A stretch of 11,880 bases of DNA, taken from the IMG/VR virus record IMGVR_UViG_2695420427_000005; one strand, given 5' to 3'. Under the pieces are notes generated by a model. That model was not told the origin of the DNA. It worked only from the letters and a program-made list of their open reading frames with translations, and searched no databases. This DNA comes from a virus (lineage: Duplodnaviria; Heunggongvirae; Uroviricota; Caudoviricetes). Position numbers and translations under genes: made by a program. Position 1 is the stretch's first letter. Each line of letters opens with the position of its first letter. Of the stretch, positions 1 to 11,880 are shown in pieces.

Positions 1-682
1 TATTCTCCCGCTCATGTTTAGCGCCGCTGAATGCCACCGCCGGAATAACAATTTGCCTGTCAAAAGGCTGATCGTCATAAATCCTGACGGTAATGGTCCC
101 TGATGGCCACCGCTCCGGTGCCCGGGAGTCCCGCGGAAAAGCCTTACCCACTGTTTTGACTATATCGCCTTCAATCTGGTTGGCTGACAGTTTCCCCTTA
201 ATCTGACAGTTCTCATTAATTGTGACATTGTTGAGCGTCCCGGCGTTCGCATTCACACTGCCACTGATATCTGCATTTTTAGCGGTCAGTTTTCCGTCCG
301 GTGTCAGGGAAAATGCCGGAGGATTACCGCCGCTGGTAATGGTGGGAGCCGTCAGATATTTCAGGAACACTTCATTCATGAATATCTGATCGCCCTGACC
401 AACAAACATCGGCTTTGTGTTGCCATTCGCAGGATTAATCATCGCAATCCTGTCTGCCGCCAGCAGCACCTGACTCTGCATTCCTGCTGGCGTATTCTCA
501 ATACCGGCACCGATACCCGCAATATAAAGGCGTCCGTCCTTCATCTGTTGCAGCTTCACAGCCCACATGCTGTTCAGATTATTATTTGTATCAACCTGAA
601 CCTTCTGTATCTGCTGGATTGCCGCACTCTGGTCTTTCAGTTTCTTATTGACAGTCTGCGTGATTTCATTGCTGACATCCGT

Positions 683-1330
683 AATGGACGTCCTGATTTC
701 AGCCAGGTCAGGCGCAAGCTGACCGTTATCAATCTGCGTCCACAGCTCCTGAGCCAGATGGGTTTTCCCTATCTCGCCTTTGAAAAAATCCAGATAGCCT
801 GATGCATCATCACTCGGCTGACCGACAGCCTCCACGAATGCCGATTTGCCAACGGTGTTCACACTGCGAACGTAAAAATAATAATCATGGCCCGGTTTGA
901 TATTGATACTGGCGGCTATCCAGTACAGCGCCGTACCAAGATAACGCGCGCTGGTTTCAACCTGCCTGATATCGGCAATCCGCGTTTCCGAGAACCAGAA
1001 CTCAAACTGTACCGTCGGATCATAAACCGCAAGATGCGGTATGGCGGTTATCTGAAAATAGCCCGGCGTCAGCTCAATCCGCGACGGTGCTGCCGGTGCG
1101 GCAATCCGGAACGATACCGACGCCGGATCGCCCTGCTGTCCCCACGCATTTATCGCCCGGACCGTCAGCGTGTAACGCCCCAGCGCCAGTTGCCTGAAGC
1201 GGTATGTGGTTTCCGTCGTCCGGGCCGTGCTGACCAGCCGCTCACTGCCGTCATCCGCTGTTACGGTCAGACGGAGCAGGAAGCTCACGCCCTTCACCAC
1301 CTTCGGCGTGTCCCAGCGCGCCAGCACCTG
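683..1330. repeat. Copy A of an approximately 650-bp imperfect direct repeat inside J (lambda-like allele, in frame with the J body and C-terminus)
   Basis: Direct comparison with 1332..1982: roughly 93-95 percent identity by eye over the first ~430 bp, including a ~117-bp perfect stretch, then strong divergence over the last ~215 bp. Encodes the FN3-like region [17 protein letters not shown] ... [39 protein letters not shown]. Confidence 0.85.
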
Positions 1331-1331
1331 A

Positions 1332-1982
1332 AATGGACGTCCTGATTTCAGTCAGGTCAGGCGCAAGCTGACCGTTATCAATCTGCGTCCACAGCTCCTG
1401 AGCCAGATGTGTTTTCCCTATCTCTCCTTTGAAAAAATCCAGGTAACCTTCCGCATCATCGCTCGCCCGACCGACAGCCTCCACGAATGCCGATTTGCCA
1501 ACGGTGTTCACACTGCGAACGTAAAAATAATAATCATGGCCCGGTTTGATATTGATACTGGCGGCTATCCAGTACAGCGCCGTGCCAAGATAGCGTGCTG
1601 TGGTTTCAACCTGCCTGATATCCGCAATCCGCTTTTCCGAGAACCAGAACTCAAACTGTACCGTCGGGTCATAAACGGCAAGATGCGGCGTTGCGGTTAT
1701 CTGAAAATAGCCCGGCGTCAGCTCAATCCGCGACGGTGCTGCCGGTGCGGCAATCCGGAAGGTGGTGGTGGCAGGTTCACCCTGCTGGCCATAGCTGTTT
1801 ATCGCCCGCACCGTCAGGGTGTATTCCCCGAGCGGCAGGCCGCTGAAACGGTGCTCCGTGTCTGCGGTGATGGCGGTGGTCACCAGTCTGGCATCCGTTC
1901 CCTTACCACTGGTCAGGCGCAGACTGAAGCGCACACCCTTCACCACCCGCGGCGTGTCCCATTTCGCCTGCGCCAGATACTG
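1332..1982. repeat. Copy B of the direct repeat inside J (divergent allele, one nucleotide out of register with flanking J sequence)
   Basis: Same J segment as copy A in a different allele ([35 protein letters not shown] ... EIRTSI). Offset between copies is 649 bp, so the two cannot share a frame. Corresponds to track ORF 1251..1946, which runs into copy A out of frame and stops at 1251. Confidence 0.8.
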
Positions 1983-3923
1983 GCCGTCAGGTGCTGCACT
2001 GCCGGTGGGATGACGCTGTTCAGGGAACCTGACTGCGGCTCAAAGCGGGCACCGTTATCCACGATGGCTTCTTTTTCCAGTACGTGCTGCACCGCCGTGA
2101 TGGCAAAGGTGCCGTCCGTGTTTTCCCGGACGGAGACACAGCGGAACAGGCGACGGCGCAGTGACGGCAGGGAGAGTCCCCACACCCCGTATGTCTCCAC
2201 ACCATCAGGCAGGGTACTGACCTGTATCCGGTCCGGCGCGGGGTGTTCGGTGATGTCCACACTCACCGGCTTACCGCTGCCGTTAATCAGGTTCACCGTG
2301 GCGGCACCGGTCTCCGGAAGTGTCACTTCACGGTCCAGCGTCAGAGTGCGGGTGGCAGCATCAATGGACAGGACACGTCCGCCGGTCAGGGTCCCGGCAT
2401 AGTCGTTATCACAGATTTCAATGATGTCACCGGGTGTGTGCCGCAGCCCCTGAGACCCGAGCGTGAAATCCACCGTCTGCGTTTCCAGCAGTTCGGTCTT
2501 TATCACCCACAGTCCGGCACGGTGGGCCTGACCGCGGCTGGTACAGCCGAACGCGTCCATCTTCAGCAGGTTGCGTCCGTAGCGCAGTATGGCTTCCGGG
2601 TCTTCCACCAGTTCCGTGGAGGTCTGCCAGCCGTTCTGCGGGTCGGTATAATTCACCTCCACCGCCGTGTGCCGGTCCTTCAGGGCACTGAAGCTGTAGC
2701 GGAAACCCACGCCGTTATCATCCACCACCACATCGCTGTTGGTGTACGGCCACACCACATCCGACGGGCGGTCCTGAACAAACGTCAGCGTCTGGCCGTT
2801 CCATACCGGCATACAGCGCATCGCCGAGCAGAAATCACTGAGCACGTCCCATGCCTTACGCTGTTGTGCCAGGTACGCATTGAAGGTCATCCGCGGCTCG
2901 GTCTCCCCGAAACTATCCGGGACCGTCTGGTCGCAGTACTGCCCGATGGCATACAGCGCCCACTTGTCCACATCCGCCGCCCCCAGACGTTTTCCCATGC
3001 CGTAGCGCGGGTGAGTCAGCATGTCCCACAGACACCAGGCCGGATTGTTGCTGTATGCCGGTTTCAGGCTGCCGTCCCAGATACCACTGTACGTGCGTTT
3101 TTCCGGGTCATAGTTTGACGGCACCTGGATGATGCGACCGCGGATATGGTAGTTCACCGTCATCTGCTGGCCGCCGAACTGCTCCGCATCCACCTGCAGC
3201 CCCACAATGGCCGTGTTCGGGTAGCACTGTTTCACATCGATGATTTCGGTGTATGACGACCACAGCGTCTTATTCTGCAGCTGGTCCGTGGTGCTGTCCG
3301 CTGTCTCCCGGACCATCCGGATGTTAAAAGGACGGGGAGGCAGATTATCCAGAATCACCGACGCCAGAAACTGCGAGGTGGTCTTGCCGTTAATGGTGAC
3401 ATCCTTTTCTGTCACCCAGTTACCGTTACGCTGTAACTGAATCAGCAGGCGGACGGATGTCGGGTTTCGGTCACCCTTTGACGTGGTCTGCACCAGTGAC
3501 TGCACCCCGAAGGTAACCCGCAGGCGGTCAATGTTCGCGGACGTAATGGTGCGCGTCACCGGTTTTGCCTTCGTCACTTCCACGCCCAGTCCGGTTTCAG
3601 CACCGGAGGACTCAAAGCCTTCCGGTGGTGTCTGCTCCTGCTCCCCGGCGCGTCAGACCGCCGTCACACCGTGTATCACGGGATTACCGTCCGTGTCCGT
3701 CAGCGGGGTTTTGTTCACCAGGATACTCTGCAGTCCCTTCACCGGACCTTCTATCAGTCCCTCACCAATCGCATCAATCACGCTCATCATCTGCGTGGAT
3801 TTGAGATTATCCTTCGCCTCACGAGGCGTGTGTGCCTTACCGCCACCTTTTCCCATACAGCCTTCCCCTGAATAAATTAACCGCCACTTGCCATTCCGTA
3901 CAGAAGTCGGATATCCTTCGCCC

Positions 3924-3995
3924 GAAAAGCATGAAACACATTTCTGCCATGCTAAAGAGAAACCCCGGTATCAGCAGATACCGGGGTTTTCTTTC
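3924..3995 (+). ncRNA. Candidate small RNA 1 (about 70 nt), antisense to the tail operon; weak promoter, strong terminator
   Basis: Possible sigma70 promoter TTGCCA (3888..3893), 18-bp spacer, TATCCT (3912..3917); ends at the 3961..3995 hairpin. The only ORF through it (MKHISAML...) reads across the terminator stem and has no SD. Confidence 0.2.
3961..3995. terminator. Intrinsic-terminator-like hairpin with U-rich tails on both strands (possibly bidirectional)
   Basis: Perfect 12-bp stem AACCCCGGTATC (3961..3972) / GATACCGGGGTT (3977..3988) with 4-nt loop AGCA. Plus strand follows with TTTTCTTTC; minus strand follows with TTTCTCTTT. Confidence 0.55.
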
Positions 3996-4061
3996 ATGCC
4001 CACCGATAATCCTGTTGGTTAAAACCGGTAATGGCATAAAAATTCTGAATATCTTCACATT

Positions 4062-4089
4062 TTCACAAACTGACTGTGGCGCGTATAAT
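4062..4089 (+). promoter_or_regulatory. Near-consensus sigma70 promoter, TTCACA-16 bp-TATAAT, firing away from J toward I (antisense to the tail operon)
   Basis: -35 TTCACA at 4062..4067, 16-bp spacer, -10 TATAAT at 4084..4089, in an AT-rich context; predicted start near 4096. Confidence 0.45.
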
Positions 4090-4095
4090 TTCTCT

Positions 4096-4193
4096 GCGTT
4101 AATTTTTTTGTCGTGATATAAGAATAATTCCTTACACTTAATCTTCGTAACTCTCCCGCAGTTCCTGTCCGCGATCACTGCGGGATTTTTTTA
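4096..4193 (+). ncRNA. Candidate small RNA 2 (about 95-100 nt) between promoter 4062..4089 and terminator 4154..4192
   Basis: Promoter and terminator bracket about 100 nt with no plausible start codon plus RBS. The sequence is AU-rich with a 3' hairpin and poly-U tail, the usual architecture of Hfq-type sRNAs. Confidence 0.3.
4154..4193 (+). terminator. Rho-independent terminator, plus-strand orientation
   Basis: 9-bp stem TCCCGCAGT (4154..4162) / ACTGCGGGA (4177..4185) followed by TTTTTTT (4186..4192). The minus-strand side has no U-tract, so it is unidirectional. It lies just 3' of the I stop but points the wrong way to terminate I. Confidence 0.55.
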
Positions 4194-4199
4194 TTCTTT

Positions 4200-4880
4200 T
4201 TACCCCTGCCGCCCGATAACCACGACCTTTCCGCCCCCGCCTTCATCACGGGTGCTGATGTCCTGGGATATACGGCGGGAGCCAACCAGCATTTCCCCGT
4301 AAGGCACCGGCATCGGGTTCCCCTGGGCAATCATGTTATCCAGTGAGGAAAAGTACGTGTTCTGTCTGCCGTTATCCGTTGCGCGGTAATCCGGTGTTTT
4401 TGCCTTCGGGGCCAGCATCTGGGCCACACCGCCCAGAATCATGCTGGCTCCAAGTGAAAACAGCATCGTGGTGGCAGAAAAACCACCGGCTGCCAGGGCT
4501 GAACCCCATAACGCCATTGATGCCCCGGCAGTGAAGAAAGAGCCCACGATGGCTGCCGCCCCCAGCACAATCTGCAGTCCACCCTTTCCGGCCCCGGCCA
4601 GTCGCGGCACAATGTGGATGACCGTTCCCTCACCCAGCTGTTCGTGAAGACGGGCGTACACCGCCTCCGGTGCCGTGTCATAACCGGCAATACGTATCTG
4701 GTACCAGCCTTCGTTCATCTGACGGCGAAAGCCCGGCATCTGCATCGACAGGGCGCGAATGGCTTCCGCTGCCGTGTTCACATACAGGCTGAGGCGGCGG
4801 CCAAATCGTTGTAAATCCCCGTGAAGGCAGATGCGTGCCAGTGGCGGTGACGCCAGACTGAATGCGTTCGTCGTTGCCAT
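4200..4880 (-). CDS. I: Tail tip assembly protein I
   Basis: 226 aa, MATTNAFSLASPPLARICLHGDLQRFGRR ..., with a Gly/Ala-rich hydrophobic segment; collinear with lambda gpI (223 aa). Position between K and J. Confidence 0.9.
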   Translation of the reverse strand: MATTNAFSLASPPLARICLHGDLQRFGRRLSLYVNTAAEAIRALSMQMPGFRRQMNEGWYQIRIAGYDTAPEAVYARLHEQLGEGTVIHIVPRLAGAGKGGLQIVLGAAAIVGSFFTAGASMALWGSALAAGGFSATTMLFSLGASMILGGVAQMLAPKAKTPDYRATDNGRQNTYFSSLDNMIAQGNPMPVPYGEMLVGSRRISQDISTRDEGGGGKVVVIGRQG

Positions 4881-5521
4881 TTTTCGGAATACCTCTCCCG
4901 TTTACTCAGTTGTTCAGGCAGATGGTGAAGCAGCTCACCGTTGCCGCAGTAAATGGCGGCATGGTTCGGTACCGAAGCACCAAAGCAGCACAGCAGAATA
5001 TCGCCCGCCTGTGCAGAGGACAGGGGCACCCGGTAAAAGCCGGTGACCGCCATATTGTCCAGGTAAAGGTTCTGACCGTTGCGCCACCAGTCATCCTCGC
5101 GATGAAAATCCGGCATTTCAGTCCCCGCCAGATGATAAGCATCCCGGAACAGCGTGTAACAGTCCGTCACCCCGTGCTCAAAGCGCCGTCCTGTCAGATG
5201 TGGCACACAGCGGAATTTGTGAATGTCACCCCGGCAGACCAACCACCAGGGCAGTGCGCTTTTTATCTGCAACCGCCGGTCAGCCTCGCTCAGCCAGGGC
5301 AGCCCACCGGGATGACTGTGGACCAGTGCCACAATCTCCCCCTGCATCTCTGCCCGCAGCCAGTCTTCCGGTGCGATACGAAAATACGCCTCCGGCTCTG
5401 CGGAAATATTCACACAAGGGATATACCGCTCCCCCTCCGGCGTGCTTATCACGAAGCCGCACGACTCCGCAGGCGCACACCGCCGGGCATGTGCCAGAAT
5501 CGCTGATTCAGTCTGTGTCAT
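4778..5521 (-). CDS. K: Tail tip assembly protein K (MPN/JAB plus NlpC/P60 two-domain protein)
   Basis: Starts MTQTESAILAHARRCAPAESCGFV ... and contains the HSHPGG (JAB/MPN) motif and a later Cys/His pair typical of NlpC/P60. The longer track ORF (to 5782) would overlap L and is rejected. The 3' end overlaps I by 103 nt, as I recall for lambda K/I. Confidence 0.8.
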   Translation of the reverse strand: MTQTESAILAHARRCAPAESCGFVISTPEGERYIPCVNISAEPEAYFRIAPEDWLRAEMQGEIVALVHSHPGGLPWLSEADRRLQIKSALPWWLVCRGDIHKFRCVPHLTGRRFEHGVTDCYTLFRDAYHLAGTEMPDFHREDDWWRNGQNLYLDNMAVTGFYRVPLSSAQAGDILLCCFGASVPNHAAIYCGNGELLHHLPEQLSKRERYSEKWQRRTHSVWRHRHWHASAFTGIYNDLAAASACM

Positions 5522-5531
5522 AAACCGGGAT

Positions 5532-6230
5532 TTACTGCGAAAGTTTATTAATGGAAAGGAAACCGCCAAAATTGCCGACATTCCTGCGCAGTTCACACCC
5601 GCGCATGCACTTGCTGCATCTGTCCTTACGGATATCCGTGGTGGGGTTGTCGAACTCATCCGCCACCGCAGGACCGTTATACCCGCATTCATCTCCCCGG
5701 TAATCCCACATACAGGTGTTCGCCAGCATGATGCGACCGGGAAACAGCGCCCCGTCCGTCTCGGTCGGTGTAGCCAGCACAAACGAGGCCGTCATGGCTG
5801 TCAGCTGCGACATCTGCTCCACCACCCAGCGGTCACTCAGCTCCTGCTCCGGGTCCGCCTCCGGATTGCCCGCAACGAAATTCACCGCATCCAGAAAACG
5901 GGCATACACCCGGCGGCGGACCACCGTGGCCCCCACCAGACTCTGCAGGTCTTCCGCCATCCCGGTGACCAGACCGAACAGATTGGACACCGTCAGCGAC
6001 GGTCTGGCACTGCTGCCCCGGCCGTTCATCTCAAAGCCGCTGCCGTCAATCGGGTATGCCTCATACTTACGCCCCTGCCAGGTGACCGGCTCCCCTTTTT
6101 CATTCAGCTCATTACAGAAAAAATACCGCTCACCACCCTGTACCGTCAGGTCGATTTCCCAGAGTACCACCCGCGGTGACTGCTCTGACTTAACCGACTC
6201 GTTCAGACTTTCTTCGCGAATATCCTGCAT
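5532..6230 (-). CDS. L: Minor tail protein L
   Basis: 232 aa, same length as lambda gpL, with high similarity along its length and a C-terminal cysteine cluster (CSKCMRGC) consistent with the known Fe-S site of gpL. Its start ATG overlaps the M stop (ATGA). Confidence 0.92.
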   Translation of the reverse strand: MQDIREESLNESVKSEQSPRVVLWEIDLTVQGGERYFFCNELNEKGEPVTWQGRKYEAYPIDGSGFEMNGRGSSARPSLTVSNLFGLVTGMAEDLQSLVGATVVRRRVYARFLDAVNFVAGNPEADPEQELSDRWVVEQMSQLTAMTASFVLATPTETDGALFPGRIMLANTCMWDYRGDECGYNGPAVADEFDNPTTDIRKDRCSKCMRGCELRRNVGNFGGFLSINKLSQ

Positions 6231-6559
6231 CAGTTCACCACCTGCTTAAACTCCGCGCTGAACTCAACGCGCAACATCCCGACCCGCGCAGACCACCCGG
6301 CACAGGTCACCTTTATCTGCCGGTATGCATAGGGTGGCTTCCACAAAAATGCCTTCCAGCCACCGTGCTCTGCCAGGAACGCTTCCAGATGCCGGGCCTC
6401 CTCCCGGGTCACGGAAAGCGTCACCCTGTATGTTTTCAGGTCAGCATTCAGCCCTGCCGCCATACGCTGTGAGTACCCGTCACCAAAACGCACTTCACGC
6501 ACCGATGGCTGCGAGTTCACCTCCATATCCGGCTTCACTTTCCAGCGAAAGGTTTTCAT
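6230..6559 (-). CDS. M: Minor tail protein M
   Basis: 109 aa, MKTFRWKVKPDMEVNSQPSVREVRFGDGYSQR ...; same length and sequence pattern as lambda gpM. Overlaps the H stop by 4 nt. Confidence 0.92.
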   Translation of the reverse strand: MKTFRWKVKPDMEVNSQPSVREVRFGDGYSQRMAAGLNADLKTYRVTLSVTREEARHLEAFLAEHGGWKAFLWKPPYAYRQIKVTCAGWSARVGMLRVEFSAEFKQVVN

Positions 6560-9129
6560 CCACCGCTCCCTGATAACATACCGCCATCACGCAACTGCAG
6601 CCGGAGTTCATCCTGTGCCCCCTTGCGGGCCATCTCATACACCGCTTTCATCAGCTGCGGCCCTGCCCGCCCGTTGGGGCCGTCGTTCTGAATCACCACG
6701 TGATTGTTCTGATTAAAATTAATGCCTTCCGCCCGCCGCATCTGCGCCGGACTTCCGGCACCGCCGACATAACCACCTTCCGCATAGCCCCGCATCAGGC
6801 GGTACAGATTGCCGACACCAATCCGGCTGGTCGCCTCCTTCGTGAAGACAAACTCCCCGCGATGAACAATCCCCGCAGGTTCATATTTACCCCCCGTCCC
6901 CGTAAATCCCCCGGTCGCGAAATGGAAGTTCGCCGCCGCAGCCTGAATGGCCGTCCCCGTGGAGGCAGACGCACCACCACCGAAAGCACCGCCAATGGCG
7001 CTGCCGATACTCCCGACTATCCCCACCATCGCCTGCTTCAGAAAAATCTCTGTCAGCATGGACAGCACAGAACGGGTGAAACCACGCCAGTTCTGTTCGC
7101 TGCCGATCAGCATCGCTGCCATATTCTGTGCAATACCGTCAAAGGTCTGCGTGGCCGCGTTTTTAACCTGCGAAAAACTGTCCGTCGCACTTTCCGCCCA
7201 CTCGCCCCAGCCGGACTTCATCCCGGCCATCCAGCTTCCACGAAGCTGCTCCTCCGCAGACCAGGTGTTCTTCAGTGCAGATGTGGCCTTCGCCAGCGCA
7301 GCCGGATTATCACCGTACACCTCACGAAGGCGCTGCTCTTCCGACTCCCGCTGCGCCTGACGGTCGGTGAGTCCGCGGGCTTTTGCGCTGATTGCCGCCT
7401 GCTTCGCGCTCTGCTGCTGTTCAAACCGCGCCGCCTGCTGTGCCAGCTCATTCAGCCGTTTCTGGTGTTCAATCTTGTCGCCCAGCTCAGCCAGCTGGCG
7501 TTTGTACTCCAGCGTTTCTTTCTCATGGGCCAGCAGGGATTTTTCCTGCTCAGATAACTGCCGTTTCGTGGCGGCCTCTTTCAGGACCACATACTGATTT
7601 TCCGCTTTCCATAAATCACGGCGCTGCTGGCTGATTTTTTCATTCGCACCGCTGTGCTTCTCCAGCGTCCTGAGCTCAGTTTCAAGCGCCAGCAGGGCTG
7701 CATGCGCCTGGTCTTCCTGGCGCTCACCGGCAGACACCTTCACACCGGACGGCTTTTTCTGCGTCGACTCATAATCCTTTTTTGCCGACGCCATCAGCGT
7801 GTTGTAATCCGCCTGCAGGATTTTCCCGTCTTTCAGGGCCTTATTCAGCTCTTCCTGCCGGGCGGTATATTTCTCCAGTGGCGTCAGCAGGCGCTCATAC
7901 GCCTTCTGCGCCTCTCCGGTATACTTCAGCTGTGACGACTCACGCTCAGCCCTGTCCCTTGCCGCCAGTTCACCGGCTTTTTCCATATCCGACTGCAGCG
8001 TTGCCGCTGCCAGACCCAGACGGGCATTTTCCCGGTCATCCCATGCGCCCTGAAGGTTGGCCCGGAAAGAGGAGGTTTTACCGCGGCGCTGGCTCCGACT
8101 CTGGTACCACTGCCATTTTTTATCCGCCTCATCAAATGCCTTCTGCGCACTGGCGAGCATATCCGCTGAGGATTCCGGACGACCGATATCCAGAATGGCA
8201 TCCCACATCGATTTGAATGCCTTCCCTGTTTTATCCGCCCAGGTCTCCAGTGTTCCCATGTTTTCTTTCAGGCGACGGGTCTGCTCATCAAAGCCTTTCG
8301 TGGCGATATCGTTCGCCGCCTGCAATGCCCCGGCCTCGTCTCCGGAACGCTGCAGCTGTGCAACATACGCAATCTGCTCTGCCGTCACGTTACGGAACTG
8401 GCGCGCCATCGCCATCAGTCCCGACGTCGGGTCAGTGGTCAGCTTCCCGAAGGCTTCAGCGACTTTATCCACCTCCACACCGGATGCAGACGCAAAACGC
8501 GCGACACTCTGGTTGATGGCATCAAACTGTTCACCACCACGCACACCGGCATTCACCAGGGCTGCCAGTGACTCTCTCGCCTGGTTAAACGTCAGCCCTG
8601 CTGCCTGCCCGGCTCTTGAGAGAGTCAGCATACGATCGGCAGTCAGTCCGGACTGATTACCGGAAAGAACCAGGGTTTTATTAAACGCTGAAAGCGTGGA
8701 ATCTCCCTGGTACCAGGCGTACACCAGTGCACCTGTCGCCACCGCCAGCGAGGTGACCCCGACCATCGGCAGGGTGATCGCATCGGCAAGCCCCCTGAAC
8801 ATGGGGATCATCCCGCCGAAGGAGTCCTTCACCTGACCGCCCTGTTGCAGCAGGATCAGCCAGGGATTCTGACCACCGGCAAGCTGCGTGGCGATATCCG
8901 TAAACTGTGCGGGCAGGGTTCGCATGGCCGCTTTATACTGCCCGACGGAAATCCCGGCTTTTTGTGCAGCCAGCGCCTGGCGGCTCAGGCCCTGTTCAAC
9001 AGCACTGGCGGTTTTTCTGGCGTCGGTATCCAGACCTGAAAAATGACGCCTTACCCGGCTCATCTGCTCATCGAAACGGACAGCATCCAGACTCAGGTCA
9101 ATAACAAGATCACCAACCGGCTGGGACAT
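6556..9129 (-). CDS. H: Tail tape measure protein H
   Basis: 857 aa (lambda gpH is 853 aa), starting MSQPVGDLVIDLSLDAVRFDEQMSRVRRHF ...; long coiled-coil-rich middle and Gly-rich C-terminal region; lies between G-T and M. Confidence 0.92.
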   Translation of the reverse strand: MSQPVGDLVIDLSLDAVRFDEQMSRVRRHFSGLDTDARKTASAVEQGLSRQALAAQKAGISVGQYKAAMRTLPAQFTDIATQLAGGQNPWLILLQQGGQVKDSFGGMIPMFRGLADAITLPMVGVTSLAVATGALVYAWYQGDSTLSAFNKTLVLSGNQSGLTADRMLTLSRAGQAAGLTFNQARESLAALVNAGVRGGEQFDAINQSVARFASASGVEVDKVAEAFGKLTTDPTSGLMAMARQFRNVTAEQIAYVAQLQRSGDEAGALQAANDIATKGFDEQTRRLKENMGTLETWADKTGKAFKSMWDAILDIGRPESSADMLASAQKAFDEADKKWQWYQSRSQRRGKTSSFRANLQGAWDDRENARLGLAAATLQSDMEKAGELAARDRAERESSQLKYTGEAQKAYERLLTPLEKYTARQEELNKALKDGKILQADYNTLMASAKKDYESTQKKPSGVKVSAGERQEDQAHAALLALETELRTLEKHSGANEKISQQRRDLWKAENQYVVLKEAATKRQLSEQEKSLLAHEKETLEYKRQLAELGDKIEHQKRLNELAQQAARFEQQQSAKQAAISAKARGLTDRQAQRESEEQRLREVYGDNPAALAKATSALKNTWSAEEQLRGSWMAGMKSGWGEWAESATDSFSQVKNAATQTFDGIAQNMAAMLIGSEQNWRGFTRSVLSMLTEIFLKQAMVGIVGSIGSAIGGAFGGGASASTGTAIQAAAANFHFATGGFTGTGGKYEPAGIVHRGEFVFTKEATSRIGVGNLYRLMRGYAEGGYVGGAGSPAQMRRAEGINFNQNNHVVIQNDGPNGRAGPQLMKAVYEMARKGAQDELRLQLRDGGMLSGSGG

Positions 9130-9981
9130 ATCTCACACCTCCCGGAATCCCCGCTGAAGCCATCATTAATGCGGCATCATCCACCATGACATCCGCCACA
9201 TCCGCAGACGATAAAATATCGCGCCCTCCGTCCCCACCGAACCGGACGCCTCCGGCAAGTCCTGCCGCTTTCTGCATCAGCATTTTGTCCTCATCCGGCC
9301 TCTCCACCTGCTCTTCCTCATGCCGGGGGACAAGCAGGCTGAAATCAGAGGGATGCATATCCGGATCGCAAAAAAACAGGCTGAGTACAGCGTACGTCAG
9401 CCCGGAAAAATGCATATCCAGCTGGGTATCCTGAAAATAATGCGTGCGGTAAAAACGGCGCCAGTCGGCATATTCGGTGGATGTCATCCCGGCAAGCATG
9501 GCGCGCCAGTCGGGTCTCCCCATCTCACGCGCCAGTCTGAGGGCAAAGTTCAGCTCGCCGTCGAAGACTTTCCCGCAGAAAAATCATCATCAGTCAGCGT
9601 GTTATTTTTCGCCACTTCAGTAATATCAGTATCCGGACGAACAGCTTCGATCATCCCGGACAGGCACAACACCACGTCTTCCGCCCGGGCAATGGCATCG
9701 GCAGGCCAGGTGGTGAGCACTTCCTGCTCTATCTTCATCACGGCCTCATTCATTGACGGTGACTGCGTTTTCTGTGGATGGTTATGCCACAGGGACATCG
9801 CCACCAGAAACGCGCCGGTTCTGACGAGATCTTCCACGCTTACCTGCAGGTTGCCGCTGGATTCTGCCTGTTCTGCACGCCGTTTCAGGAGGGCAAGATG
9901 CTCGATACGCTGCAGCGCAGACAATTCGGAAAGCGTGACAGACACACCGTTATATTCAAATTGTTCTGTTTTCAGAAACAT
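9110..9981 (-). CDS. T: Tail assembly chaperone G-T fusion produced by programmed -1 ribosomal frameshift
   Basis: Slippery sequence G GGA AAG on the minus strand (plus 9568..9574). The -1 frame continues VFDGELNFALRLAREMGRPDWRAMLAGMTSTEYADWRRFY ... to the stop at 9110..9112, matching lambda gpT. Frame arithmetic (G codons at coordinates 0 mod 3, T codons at 1 mod 3) fits a -1 shift. Confidence 0.8.
9550..9981 (-). CDS. G: Tail assembly chaperone G
   Basis: 143 aa, MFLKTEQFEYNGVSVTLSELSALQRIEHLALLKR ..., ending ...DDDFSAGKSSTAS. The slippery heptamer lies about 5 codons before the stop. Confidence 0.9.
   Translation of the reverse strand: MFLKTEQFEYNGVSVTLSELSALQRIEHLALLKRRAEQAESSGNLQVSVEDLVRTGAFLVAMSLWHNHPQKTQSPSMNEAVMKIEQEVLTTWPADAIARAEDVVLCLSGMIEAVRPDTDITEVAKNNTLTDDDFSAGKSSTAS
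9568..9574 (-). other. Programmed -1 frameshift slippery heptamer GGGAAAG of the G / G-T pair
   Basis: Exact X XXY YYZ heptamer in the correct phase with the G reading frame, at the conserved position near the G 3' end. Confidence 0.75.
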
Positions 9982-9994
9982 GTATTACCTCCGT

Positions 9995-10747
9995 TTACCC
10001 TGCAGCGCCCGCTTCAGTAACGGTGACTTCAGCCACTGCGGCGAACTGACCATTTCCGCTCACCACAGGGATCTGCACCTTACCTGTCGCCACGCCGTTT
10101 ACCGTAATTGTCATATCTTTCACACTAATGGTGGCTTTCGACGGATCGGCGGAAACCGCTCTGAACGTCTTGTCGGTTGCACTTTCCGGCTCAAAAGAAA
10201 CCGTCAGGGTGGTTGTTTTCCCTTTTGCCACCGTACCGGATGTCGGCGTCACCTTAATCGCACTGACCGGCGTAATTTTGCTGCGTTCTTCCGCTACAGA
10301 AGGTTTACCCACGTTAGTGACTTTCACCGTGCGGGTGATCACTTCTTTCGCCGTCACGGCCTTACCGATACTGCTGACCCAGCCACGAAACACATCCACC
10401 GTGCCATTCGGAAAACGGATTTTATAGGCCCGGACATCGCCGCTTTCAAACCAGCCTATAAGCCCTTTCTGGCCTTCCTCTCCCGGTTTCCAGGCCAGCG
10501 TAAAACTGGTATCACCTGCAGATTTCTGCCCCTGCCCGGTCGCGCTCCAGTCCGCGTCTTCATCATCCAGGTAGTTATCATCATAGGATTCAGCCGTCAT
10601 CTCGCCCGGCGTCAGATCCTTCACCTTAGCCAGTCGCTGCCAGTCATCGTCTGACAACGGGTTTGCATAAGCATCAGCCTTGCCGTTGTAAACCCACAGA
10701 GTGGTACCGGCACCTTTTACCGGCTCCAGGGGATTTGGTGTTGCCAT
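9995..10747 (-). CDS. V: Major tail tube protein V with C-terminal Ig-like domain
   Basis: 250 aa, contains ...[48 protein letters not shown] ... [37 protein letters not shown] ...; strongly similar to lambda gpV. Confidence 0.92.
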
Positions 10748-10754
10748 ATCGTCC

Positions 10755-11150
10755 TCACATCTCGTATGTAATGGAATAAGTCAGATCCGCAGAGCTCCAT
10801 AACGCCATATCGTCATCACGACGATACTCATAGCCCTGCGTAACCATCGTGGTAATCAGTCCTGCCAGTGCAGGGATCGCAGTCATCGCCGGATAAATCC
10901 GGCTTTCCATCCACTGATCGAGCTCCGAATCAGGTACCTGTGCCGGTAAAAACACCTCAATATGCAGTGTGGCCCGCCAGGTATCTGCATCCAGCTCTTC
11001 ACCGGTATACTCTGCATCCGTCAGATAAACCGCGATCGCAGGAAAATCCTCTTCGTCAAAAACAACGGGGCGACCATCAAACAGCGTCGCCCCGTGTTCA
11101 TGCTGCTCGAGTGCATCCAGCACTGCGGCACGAATGTCAGTGTGTTTCAT
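10755..11150 (-). CDS. U: Tail tube terminator protein U
   Basis: 131 aa, same length as lambda gp[38 protein letters not shown] ...; overlaps the Z stop by 4 nt (ATGA). Confidence 0.92.
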
Positions 11151-11722
11151 CGTTTTATCGCAATCCTCAGTTGTTGTTTCAGCGCGTATGCCAGTTCTTT
11201 AGGCAGGCGTTCACGCCGGATACGGTCAACATTCTCATCAAATGCCTGTTTCAGTGGGGCCGCCATCGGGATTTTCACCACCTGAATGGGAAGGCGATTA
11301 CGCTTTTTCCTTCCCTTGTCGTCATTGCCCTCCTCATATCTGGCCTGGGGAAGACGTTGCATAACATGCCAGCGCCCATTATTTAATCGCTGGATAAATG
11401 CCCGCTGATAACGATGCTGACCGGCTTTGAGTATGCTGTTCGGACGACGCCCCAGCATTCTGATCCCCAGCTTAATCACAGGGAGATCACCGCGGTTAAC
11501 GATAATTCTGGCATTCGGATTTCTGACCGTCGCCCGTTTCAGTCTGGACCGTTCCTTTACCAGTTTCCGTCTCACCCTGGTTTCCCGGGCAACCTGTGAC
11601 GAAGACTGATTAATCGCCGTTGTGGCCACGCGGTTAATGGTCATTGCAGAAGCAGCCGGAATGGCGTTTTTACGAACCCGGCTCAGATTGTCAATCGCCT
11701 GATCAAGCCCTTTTATCGCCAT
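11147..11722 (-). CDS. Z: Tail completion protein Z
   Basis: 191 aa, MAIKGLDQAIDNLSRVRKNAIPAASAMTINRVATTAINQ ...; length and sequence similar to lambda gpZ (192 aa); located between FII and U. Confidence 0.92.
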   Translation of the reverse strand: MAIKGLDQAIDNLSRVRKNAIPAASAMTINRVATTAINQSSSQVARETRVRRKLVKERSRLKRATVRNPNARIIVNRGDLPVIKLGIRMLGRRPNSILKAGQHRYQRAFIQRLNNGRWHVMQRLPQARYEEGNDDKGRKKRNRLPIQVVKIPMAAPLKQAFDENVDRIRRERLPKELAYALKQQLRIAIKR

Positions 11723-11736
11723 AATTCACCCTGCGT

Positions 11737-11880
11737 TTATCGTCGCCGGTTAACTGCGGGTGGTTGCCCACGGTTGAGCCAGAGATAACAGCTGCCCCCG
11801 TCATCCGGAGATGTCAGCGCCAGTGATATAAGACGGTAATTCGCCATTTGGATTGTCCGCTCCACCCAACATGTTGTTTC
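11737..11880 (-). CDS. FII: Head-tail joining protein FII, C-terminal 47 codons only (5' end beyond window)
   Basis: In-frame translation from the window edge ends ...SPDDGGSCYLWLNRGQPPAVNRRR stop, matching the lambda gpFII C-terminus (...SPDDGGSCHLWLGRGVPPAVNRRR). Stop at 11737..11739, 14 bp before the Z start. Confidence 0.75.
   Translation of the reverse strand, partial: ETTCWVERTIQMANYRLISLALTSPDDGGSCYLWLNRGQPPAVNRRR

What the first reader, a model, noticed from the sequence alone, without database searches (positions are those of the whole stretch)
3653..3655. In-frame TGA at codon 68 of J with perfect J homology continuing in the same frame on both sides
The sequence reads ...PVIHGVTAV-stop-RAGEQEQTPPEGFESS..., whereas lambda has ...VVFRAGEQEQ... 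at this point. This is a point nonsense change, not a frameshift. It would truncate the tail-tip protein after 67 residues unless suppressed, and could be a genuine inactivating mutation of a cryptic prophage or a sequencing error. UGA is the leakiest stop codon in E. coli, so low-level read-through is conceivable but unproven.
Basis: seen in the sequence. Interest (0 to 1): 0.45.

Follow-up and report, generated by a model that had tools for sequence, protein, structure and literature searches.

The report
Nonsense mutation in decayed prophage J
The in-frame TGA is a real Trp-to-stop point mutation (TGG to TGA), fixed in the Shigella sonnei lineage, in the tail-tip gene J of a prophage remnant that has lost its head genes and has at least one more break in J, so it is an ordinary pseudogene lesion.

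Summary
J lies on the minus strand (ATG at 3856), and codon 68 (window 3655..3653) is TGA, with J homology continuing in the same frame on both sides.

- **Ancestral codon:** TGG (Trp). The closest intact allele, E. coli ATCC 25922 gpJ, differs in 901 nt only by this G-to-A change and by P34L. Lambda has Phe at this position.
- **Not a sequencing error:** the exact 67-aa product is on record on 551 contigs, named Shigella sonnei by sources. Ten genomes examined, eight of them Mb-scale chromosome records, all read TGA. It is lineage-specific: no place in 5426 complete E. coli genomes matches with TGA, and 78 of 80 IMG/VR relatives read TGG.
- **J is broken again downstream:** every carrier examined also has a 22-nt deletion 1.67 kb downstream that shifts the frame. 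This window additionally has a 649-nt diverged partial duplication.
- **The prophage is a remnant:** IS elements replace the region where intact relatives carry endolysin, terminase, portal, capsid, FI and FII.
- **Read-through:** UGA followed by C is a weak stop, and Trp-tRNA read-through would restore the ancestral residue. It still could not produce a functional J. There is no SECIS-like fold, no tRNA gene and no conservation of the stop among relatives.

Verdict: an ordinary pseudogene lesion of low interest.

The parts
3653..3655 (-). Opal stop codon TGA at codon 68 of J. It derives from TGG (Trp) by a G-to-A transition at window 3653 (C-to-T on the + strand). The next base is C, so the stop signal is UGA-C.
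   Evidence: 79 relatives read TGG and 12 carriers read TGA.
3656..3856 (-). J codons 1-67, the only part translated from the J start codon. No Pfam domain is found in it.
   Evidence: The exact product is on 551 contigs.
3756..3756 (-). Second lineage-specific substitution, CCG to CTG (P34L), in the GEGPIEGP motif that lambda shares.
   Evidence: Leu occurs only in the 12 TGA carriers, and the other 79 loci have Pro.
1991..3652 (-). J codons 69 to about 622, still open in the original frame. It holds the FNIII-A_GpJ and Phage-tail_3 domains.
   Evidence: Gene callers report a 547-aa ORF at 1940..3583.
1983..1990 (-). Junction of a 22-nt deletion that removed GTGGAGGTGAGCGCAGCTGACG between two CTGACGG direct repeats. 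The frame shifts and the original frame stops at window 1940..1942.
   Evidence: The deletion is present in exactly the same 12 loci that carry TGA.
1332..1982 (-). J Ig-like domains (Ig_J in part, Ig_J_second), copy 1. It is readable only in the shifted frame. The original frame has many stops here.
1331..1332 (-). Junction found only in this window: ...ATCAGGACGTCCATT|TCAGGTGCTGGCGCG.... J nt 2525 is joined back to a lambda-like '(Y)[10 protein letters not shown]' point. This adds a 649-nt block (copy 2, about 683..1331) that is 90.8% identical to copy 1.
   Evidence: The junction is absent from L002-L011 and all other loci, from IMG/VR and from the GTDB representatives.
1..1330 (-). Copy 2 of the Ig-like domains, then Phage_Tail_Tip and the start of the C-terminal receptor-binding domain. 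It is back in the original J frame and is cut off by the window end.
4200..11722 (-). Tail genes Z, U, V, G, T, H, M, L, K and I, all open and of normal length.
11812..11880 (-). Upstream edge of the remnant. Only about the last 75 nt of FII align with the intact relative. In S. sonnei genomes an IS21-family element lies immediately beyond the window end.

Best explanation
A spontaneous G:C-to-A:T transition changed Trp codon 68 (TGG) of the lambda-like tail-tip gene J to the opal stop TGA. This happened in a prophage resident in the ancestor of Shigella sonnei. The prophage is a non-inducible remnant whose lysis-to-FII region is replaced by IS elements. J was therefore under no selection, and the mutation was fixed by drift or hitch-hiking in this clonal lineage.

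It was fixed together with a P34L change and a 22-nt slipped-mispairing deletion further down J. Translation from the J start ends after 67 residues, and no functional J can be made.

Shown: the substitution, its ancestral state, its presence in many independent assemblies, the additional lesions, and the loss of head genes. Inferred: neutrality, drift, and the order of the events.
For: - **The stop itself:** TGA sits in frame at codon 68, with J homology on both sides.
- **Ancestral state:** the nearest intact allele, ATCC 25922 gpJ of 1230 aa, differs in 901 nt only by TGG to TGA and P34L.
- **Relatives:** 78 of 80 IMG/VR relatives read TGG. No place in 5426 complete E. coli genomes matches a 61-nt probe carrying TGA exactly; the best match is 98.4%.
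- **Independent assemblies:** the exact 67-aa product is on 551 contigs in 633 blocks and is named Shigella sonnei by sources. Ten genomes read out all have TGA.
- **Co-occurring lesions:** the same 12 loci, and only they, carry L34 and the 22-nt deletion.
- **Missing modules:** in S. sonnei CP032523, holin and DUF1327 are followed by two IS elements and then Z. Endolysin, Nu1/A, W, portal, protease, D, E, FI and FII are absent, although intact relatives have them.
- **Continuing decay:** individual strains carry further private indels in I, H and J.
Against: - All ten other tail genes in the window are intact. This could suggest selection, but it is equally expected in a young clonal lineage.
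- UGA-C is a weak terminator, so some Trp read-through product up to the frameshift is possible.
- The order of the TGA and the deletion cannot be resolved, because no genome examined carries one without the other.
- Shigella genomes outside S. sonnei were not surveyed directly.
Confidence: 0.93

Rival explanations
1. The TGA is a sequencing or assembly error in this record, and the real genome has TGG.
For: It is a single-base difference from the closest E. coli allele. No E. coli complete genome shares it.
Against: The identical 67-aa product is recorded on 551 contigs in 633 blocks. All ten genomes read out have TGA, as do two IMG/VR contigs. The window matches these loci at 99.9% or more over 10.5 kb.
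Confidence: 0.01
2. The UGA is read through, by leaky decoding or programmed recoding by Trp-tRNATrp, to give a functional or regulated J product.
For: The stop signal is UGA-C. A +4 C is reported as the inefficient context in bacteria (PMC5289835). A K-12 reporter shows 2-4% UGA read-through by Trp-tRNATrp competing with RF2 (PMC10570021). The inserted residue would be the ancestral Trp.
Against: - The stop is not conserved: 79 relatives have TGG.
- The downstream frame is destroyed by the 22-nt deletion in every carrier, and in this window by the extra 649-nt block.
- The 66 nt that start at the UGA fold no better than shuffles, z = -0.78.
- The flanks are identical to those of the TGG allele.
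- The prophage has no head genes.
- At most, read-through could give a fragment of about 638 aa without the receptor-binding end.
Confidence: 0.03
3. The UGA encodes selenocysteine.
For: UGA is the Sec codon, and enterobacteria have the Sec machinery (own knowledge).
Against: The ancestral codon is Trp with identical flanking sequence. There is no significantly stable downstream hairpin and no Rfam match in the window. Phage tail proteins are not known selenoproteins (own knowledge).
Confidence: 0.003
4. The break is adaptive. The remnant is a domesticated tail module, for example tailocin-like, or the 67-aa peptide or the downstream 547-aa ORF has a new function.
For: Z, U, V, G, T, H, M, L, K and I are all intact in the window. 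The arrangement is kept in hundreds of assemblies.
Against: - Individual strains carry private frameshifts in I, a split H and a further 17-nt deletion in J. This argues against purifying selection.
- No Shine-Dalgarno-like sequence is evident upstream of the GTG at 3583.
- The 67-aa peptide has no domain.
- A tail without the J C-terminus lacks its receptor-binding domain.
- No endolysin gene is called next to the holin in the 10 kb shown upstream of Z.
Confidence: 0.03

Closest known systems
Bacteriophage lambda tip attachment protein J (gpJ, 1132 aa; J02459 15505..18903)
   Same: It holds the same position after I and before lom. The N-terminus matches, including ...RAGEQEQTPPEGFESS.... The Pfam domain order is also the same: FNIII-A_GpJ, Phage-tail_3, Ig_J, Ig_J_second, Phage_Tail_Tip, Ig_GpJ_C.
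   Different: Lambda has Phe at residue 68 and an uninterrupted ORF. Here codon 68 is a stop, and the gene also carries a 22-nt deletion and a partial duplication.
E. coli ATCC 25922 prophage gpJ (WP_016265923.1, 1230 aa)
   Same: It is 99.8% identical over the I-J junction and the first 557 nt of J. The 343-nt I-J spacer is the same, and residue 68 is Trp.
   Different: It is intact and its prophage still has FI and FII upstream. From about J nt 2250 onward it is a different allele.
Pseudogene and IS-driven decay of prophages in Shigella (general phenomenon, own knowledge)
   Same: There are several independent lesions in one gene, IS elements replace essential modules, and the lesions are fixed in a clonal lineage.
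   Different: Nothing distinguishes this case from that pattern.
Leaky or programmed UGA decoding in E. coli: the prfB UGA-C site and Q-beta A1 read-through (own knowledge and PMC5289835)
   Same: It has the same weak tetranucleotide UGA-C, and the same near-cognate decoder, Trp-tRNATrp, would act on it (PMC10570021).
   Different: The stop is not conserved among relatives, there is no stimulatory element, and no intact ORF lies downstream.

Membership tests
Lambda-like tail tip attachment protein J gene | Sequence homology to gpJ with the characteristic domain order | tested here: met
   The J fragments hit Pfam FNIII-A_GpJ, Phage-tail_3, Ig_J, Ig_J_second, Phage_Tail_Tip and Ig_GpJ_C. The N-terminus aligns to lambda and ATCC 25922 J.
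Lambda-like tail tip attachment protein J gene | Position at the end of the Z-U-V-G-T-H-M-L-K-I tail operon, upstream of lom | tested here: met
   The gene order in the window and in S. sonnei loci matches, with lom at locus 13520..14119.
Lambda-like tail tip attachment protein J gene | One uninterrupted ORF of about 1130-1230 codons (a functional member) | tested here: not met
   There is a stop at codon 68, a 22-nt frameshifting deletion, and an out-of-register 649-nt block.
Programmed stop-codon read-through | The stop codon is conserved among relatives | tested here: not met
   79 relatives read TGG and only the 12 S. sonnei-type loci read TGA. No place in 5426 E. coli genomes matches with TGA.
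Programmed stop-codon read-through | An intact, conserved coding frame downstream of the stop | tested here: not met
   All carriers have the 22-nt deletion, with a stop at window 1940..1942.
Programmed stop-codon read-through | A weak stop context or a stimulatory structure | tested here: inconclusive
   The UGA-C context is present (PMC5289835). The region from the UGA onward folds no better than shuffles, z = -0.78.
Selenocysteine recoding | A SECIS hairpin immediately 3' of the UGA | tested here: not met
   There is no significant structure, the flanks are identical to those of the Trp-coding alleles, and Rfam gives nothing.
Pseudogene in a cryptic (defective) prophage | Several independent disabling lesions in the same gene | tested here: met
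   The lesions are the TGA, the 22-nt deletion and, in this window, the 649-nt block.
Pseudogene in a cryptic (defective) prophage | Loss of modules essential for virion production | tested here: met
   IS elements lie where intact relatives carry endolysin through FII. Only about 75 nt of FII remain in the window.
Pseudogene in a cryptic (defective) prophage | No expression of a functional product | not testable with these tools
   This needs proteomics, ribosome profiling or induction experiments in S. sonnei.

The most novel reading that the evidence does not exclude
UGA-C at codon 68 is read through at per-cent level by Trp-tRNATrp and restores the ancestral Trp. S. sonnei would then make a J fragment of about 638 aa (hub, FNIII-A and Phage-tail_3 domains). 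With the ten intact tail genes, this fragment would assemble receptor-blind tail-like particles, or have some other domesticated role.
Probability: 0.02. Interest if true: 0.35.

Novelty: already known. Interest (0 to 1): 0.07.

Why it matters
It matters little biologically. This is one more example of neutral decay in a Shigella prophage remnant.

There are three practical points:
- The TGA is real and should be annotated as a pseudogene lesion, not "corrected".
- TGA68, L34 and the 22-nt deletion together make a convenient marker of the S. sonnei copy of this prophage.
- Gene callers split J into 67-aa, 547-aa and roughly 510-aa "proteins" that populate databases as spurious entries.

Tried and rejected
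- **Sequencing error.** Rejected by the exact-product look-ups.
- **Selenocysteine or a structured recoding signal.** Rejected by the fold test, the Rfam scan and the identical flanks in TGG alleles.
- **A suppressor tRNA in the window.** None was found.
- **Dcm-hotspot origin of the transition.** The sequence context CCAGA is not CCWGG (read directly).
- **Finding the source of the window-specific junction.**
  - Exact-protein look-ups with two alternative starts found nothing.
  - Exact 35-nt scans of IMG/VR and of the GTDB species representatives found nothing.
  - Whether the 649-nt block is a strain-specific rearrangement or an assembly artefact therefore stays open.
- **Poole et al. 1995 (PMC398062).** It is not held, so the context effect is cited through PMC5289835.
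- **Literature on this specific S. sonnei prophage.** The search gave nothing useful.

Full report
**Observation.**
- The tail operon of this window is on the minus strand. J starts at ATG 3856. After 67 sense codons (MGKGGGKAH...NPVIHGVTAV) the frame reaches TGA at window 3655..3653, and then continues RAGEQEQTPPEGFESS... in the same frame.
- Lambda J reads ...GVTVVFRAGEQEQ... at the homologous place.
It did not state the strand.

**Ancestral state.**
- A 901-nt query across the I-J junction (window 3300..4200) has no exact match in 5426 complete E. coli genomes. It matches 21 records at 99.8%, among them ATCC 25922.
- ATCC 25922 has an intact 1230-aa gpJ in a complete FI-FII-Z...J-lom-stf cluster.
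- The ungapped comparison shows two differences. The first is window 3653, TGG (Trp) to TGA. The second is window 3756, CCG to CTG, which gives P34L in the GEGPIEGP motif that lambda also has. Both are G:C-to-A:T transitions, and both alter the protein.
- Among 80 close relatives fetched from IMG/VR, 78 read TGG and 2 read TGA.
- A 61-nt probe centred on the TGA finds 2780 places in 1330 E. coli genomes. None is an exact match, and the best is 60 of 61.

**Real or error?**
- The exact 67-aa product is on record on 551 contigs in 633 blocks of the collection. Fifteen blocks have contigs above 1 Mb. Sources name it 'Shigella sonnei' or 'host specificity protein J'.
- Ten genomes were read out, and the window aligns to them at 99.7-99.96% over 10.5 kb. 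All ten have TGA.
- The mutation is therefore genuine and is fixed, or at least very widespread, in S. sonnei. A sequencing error is excluded.

**J is broken again.**
- At J nt 1873 (window 1983..1990) 22 nt are missing relative to all intact relatives. The missing sequence, GTGGAGGTGAGCGCAGCTGACG, lay between two CTGACGG direct repeats.
- The frame shifts there and the original frame stops at window 1940..1942.
- L34, TGA68 and this deletion occur together in the same 12 loci and in none of the other 79.
- In the S. sonnei genomes the rest of J is open in the shifted frame. This is why annotations list 67-aa, 547-aa and 509- or 513-aa pieces.

**A third lesion found only in this window.**
- At 1332|1331, J nt 2525 is joined without homology to a lambda-like '(Y)[10 protein letters not shown]...' point. 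This adds a 649-nt second copy of the Ig-like domains that is 90.8% identical to the first.
- Below window position about 760, the window is again almost identical to the S. sonnei type.
- The junction was not found in any fetched locus, in IMG/VR, in the GTDB representatives, or by protein look-up. It is either strain-specific or an assembly artefact.
- The original J frame contains many stops across copy 1.

**Context.**
- Z, U, V, G, T, H, M, L, K and I are open and of normal length.
- At the Z-proximal end of the window only about 75 nt of FII align to the intact relative.
- In S. sonnei CP032523 the order is RusA, Q, methylase, NanS-like esterase, holin, DUF1327, an IS, an IS21-family element, then Z. 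Intact relatives with the same Z have Rz, Nu1, A, W, portal, protease, D, E, FI and FII in that place.
- The element therefore cannot make heads and is a cryptic remnant.
- Individual strains add private damage, which fits ongoing neutral decay:
  - 1-nt deletions in I (L007, L009);
  - a split H (L009);
  - a 17-nt deletion in J (L010).

**Recoding alternatives.**
- The stop signal is UGA-C. A +4 C is reported as the inefficient termination context in bacteria (PMC5289835).
- A K-12 reporter gives about 2% UGA read-through at 37 C and about 4% at 25 C. It works through Trp-tRNATrp competing with RF2 (PMC10570021). Read-through would therefore re-insert the ancestral Trp.
- Four results argue against any evolved recoding:
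  - the 66 nt from the UGA onward fold no better than shuffles, z = -0.78;
  - the flanks are identical in the TGG allele;
  - the window has no tRNA gene and no Rfam match;
  - the stop is not conserved among relatives.
- Any read-through product would end about 570 residues later, at the frameshift. It would lack Ig_J_second, Phage_Tail_Tip and the C-terminal receptor-binding domain.

**Conclusion.**
- This is an ordinary lineage-fixed nonsense mutation (W68 to opal). It is one of at least two disabling lesions of J in an IS-truncated lambdoid prophage remnant of S. sonnei.
'Sequencing error' is wrong. 'Read-through' is chemically conceivable but has no functional consequence.
- Novelty: already known in kind, and present in hundreds of public genomes. 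Interest is low.

Noticed in passing
window 1983..1990 (minus strand); shifted-frame stop at 1940..1942: A 22-nt deletion in J between two CTGACGG direct repeats shifts the frame. It is shared by all 12 TGA-carrying loci and is absent from relatives.
   Followed up: yes
window 683..1331, junction at 1332|1331: A 649-nt diverged second copy of the J Ig-like domains (90.8% identical to copy 1 at 1332..1980) is joined without homology. It occurs only in this window. 649 - 22 = 627 nt is a multiple of 3, so the J 3' part is back in the original frame. It is either a strain-specific recombination between two J alleles or a mis-assembly.
   Followed up: partly
window 1596..1600, 1352 and 356..374: Small clusters of differences from all ten S. 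sonnei loci lie inside otherwise identical sequence, next to or within the repeated J segments. At 1599, 1600 and 1352 the bases of the S. sonnei loci match copy 2 of the window. This looks like gene-conversion patches between the copies.
   Followed up: partly
window 3857..4199 (I-J spacer): - The spacer is 343 nt at 41.7% GC, against about 58-60% GC in the flanks. Lambda has 60 nt here.
- It has no Pfam or Rfam match.
- On the + strand, antisense to the tail genes, there is a promoter-like TTCACA-16-TATAAT (4062..4089) and a hairpin plus T-run (4168..4195).
- There is also a perfect 10-bp hairpin CCCCGGTATC/GATACCGGGG at about 3963..3986.
- It looks like a moron or small-RNA cassette.
- The spacer is conserved over at least 320 nt in 52 fetched loci, and it is unannotated in ATCC 25922.
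   Followed up: partly
window 11812..11880: The window ends about 33 nt from the IS21-family element that abuts the truncated FII remnant in S. sonnei genomes. The prophage head region is replaced by IS elements.
   Followed up: yes
L007 and L009 (gene I), L009 (gene H), L010 (J; equivalent to window 2187..2203): Single S. sonnei strains carry extra private lesions in this tail cluster: 1-nt deletions that split I, a split tape-measure gene, and a 17-nt deletion in J. This is evidence of continuing decay.
   Followed up: partly
window 3756: P34L (CCG to CTG) lies in the conserved GEGPIEGP motif of J. It is found only in the TGA carriers.
   Followed up: yes
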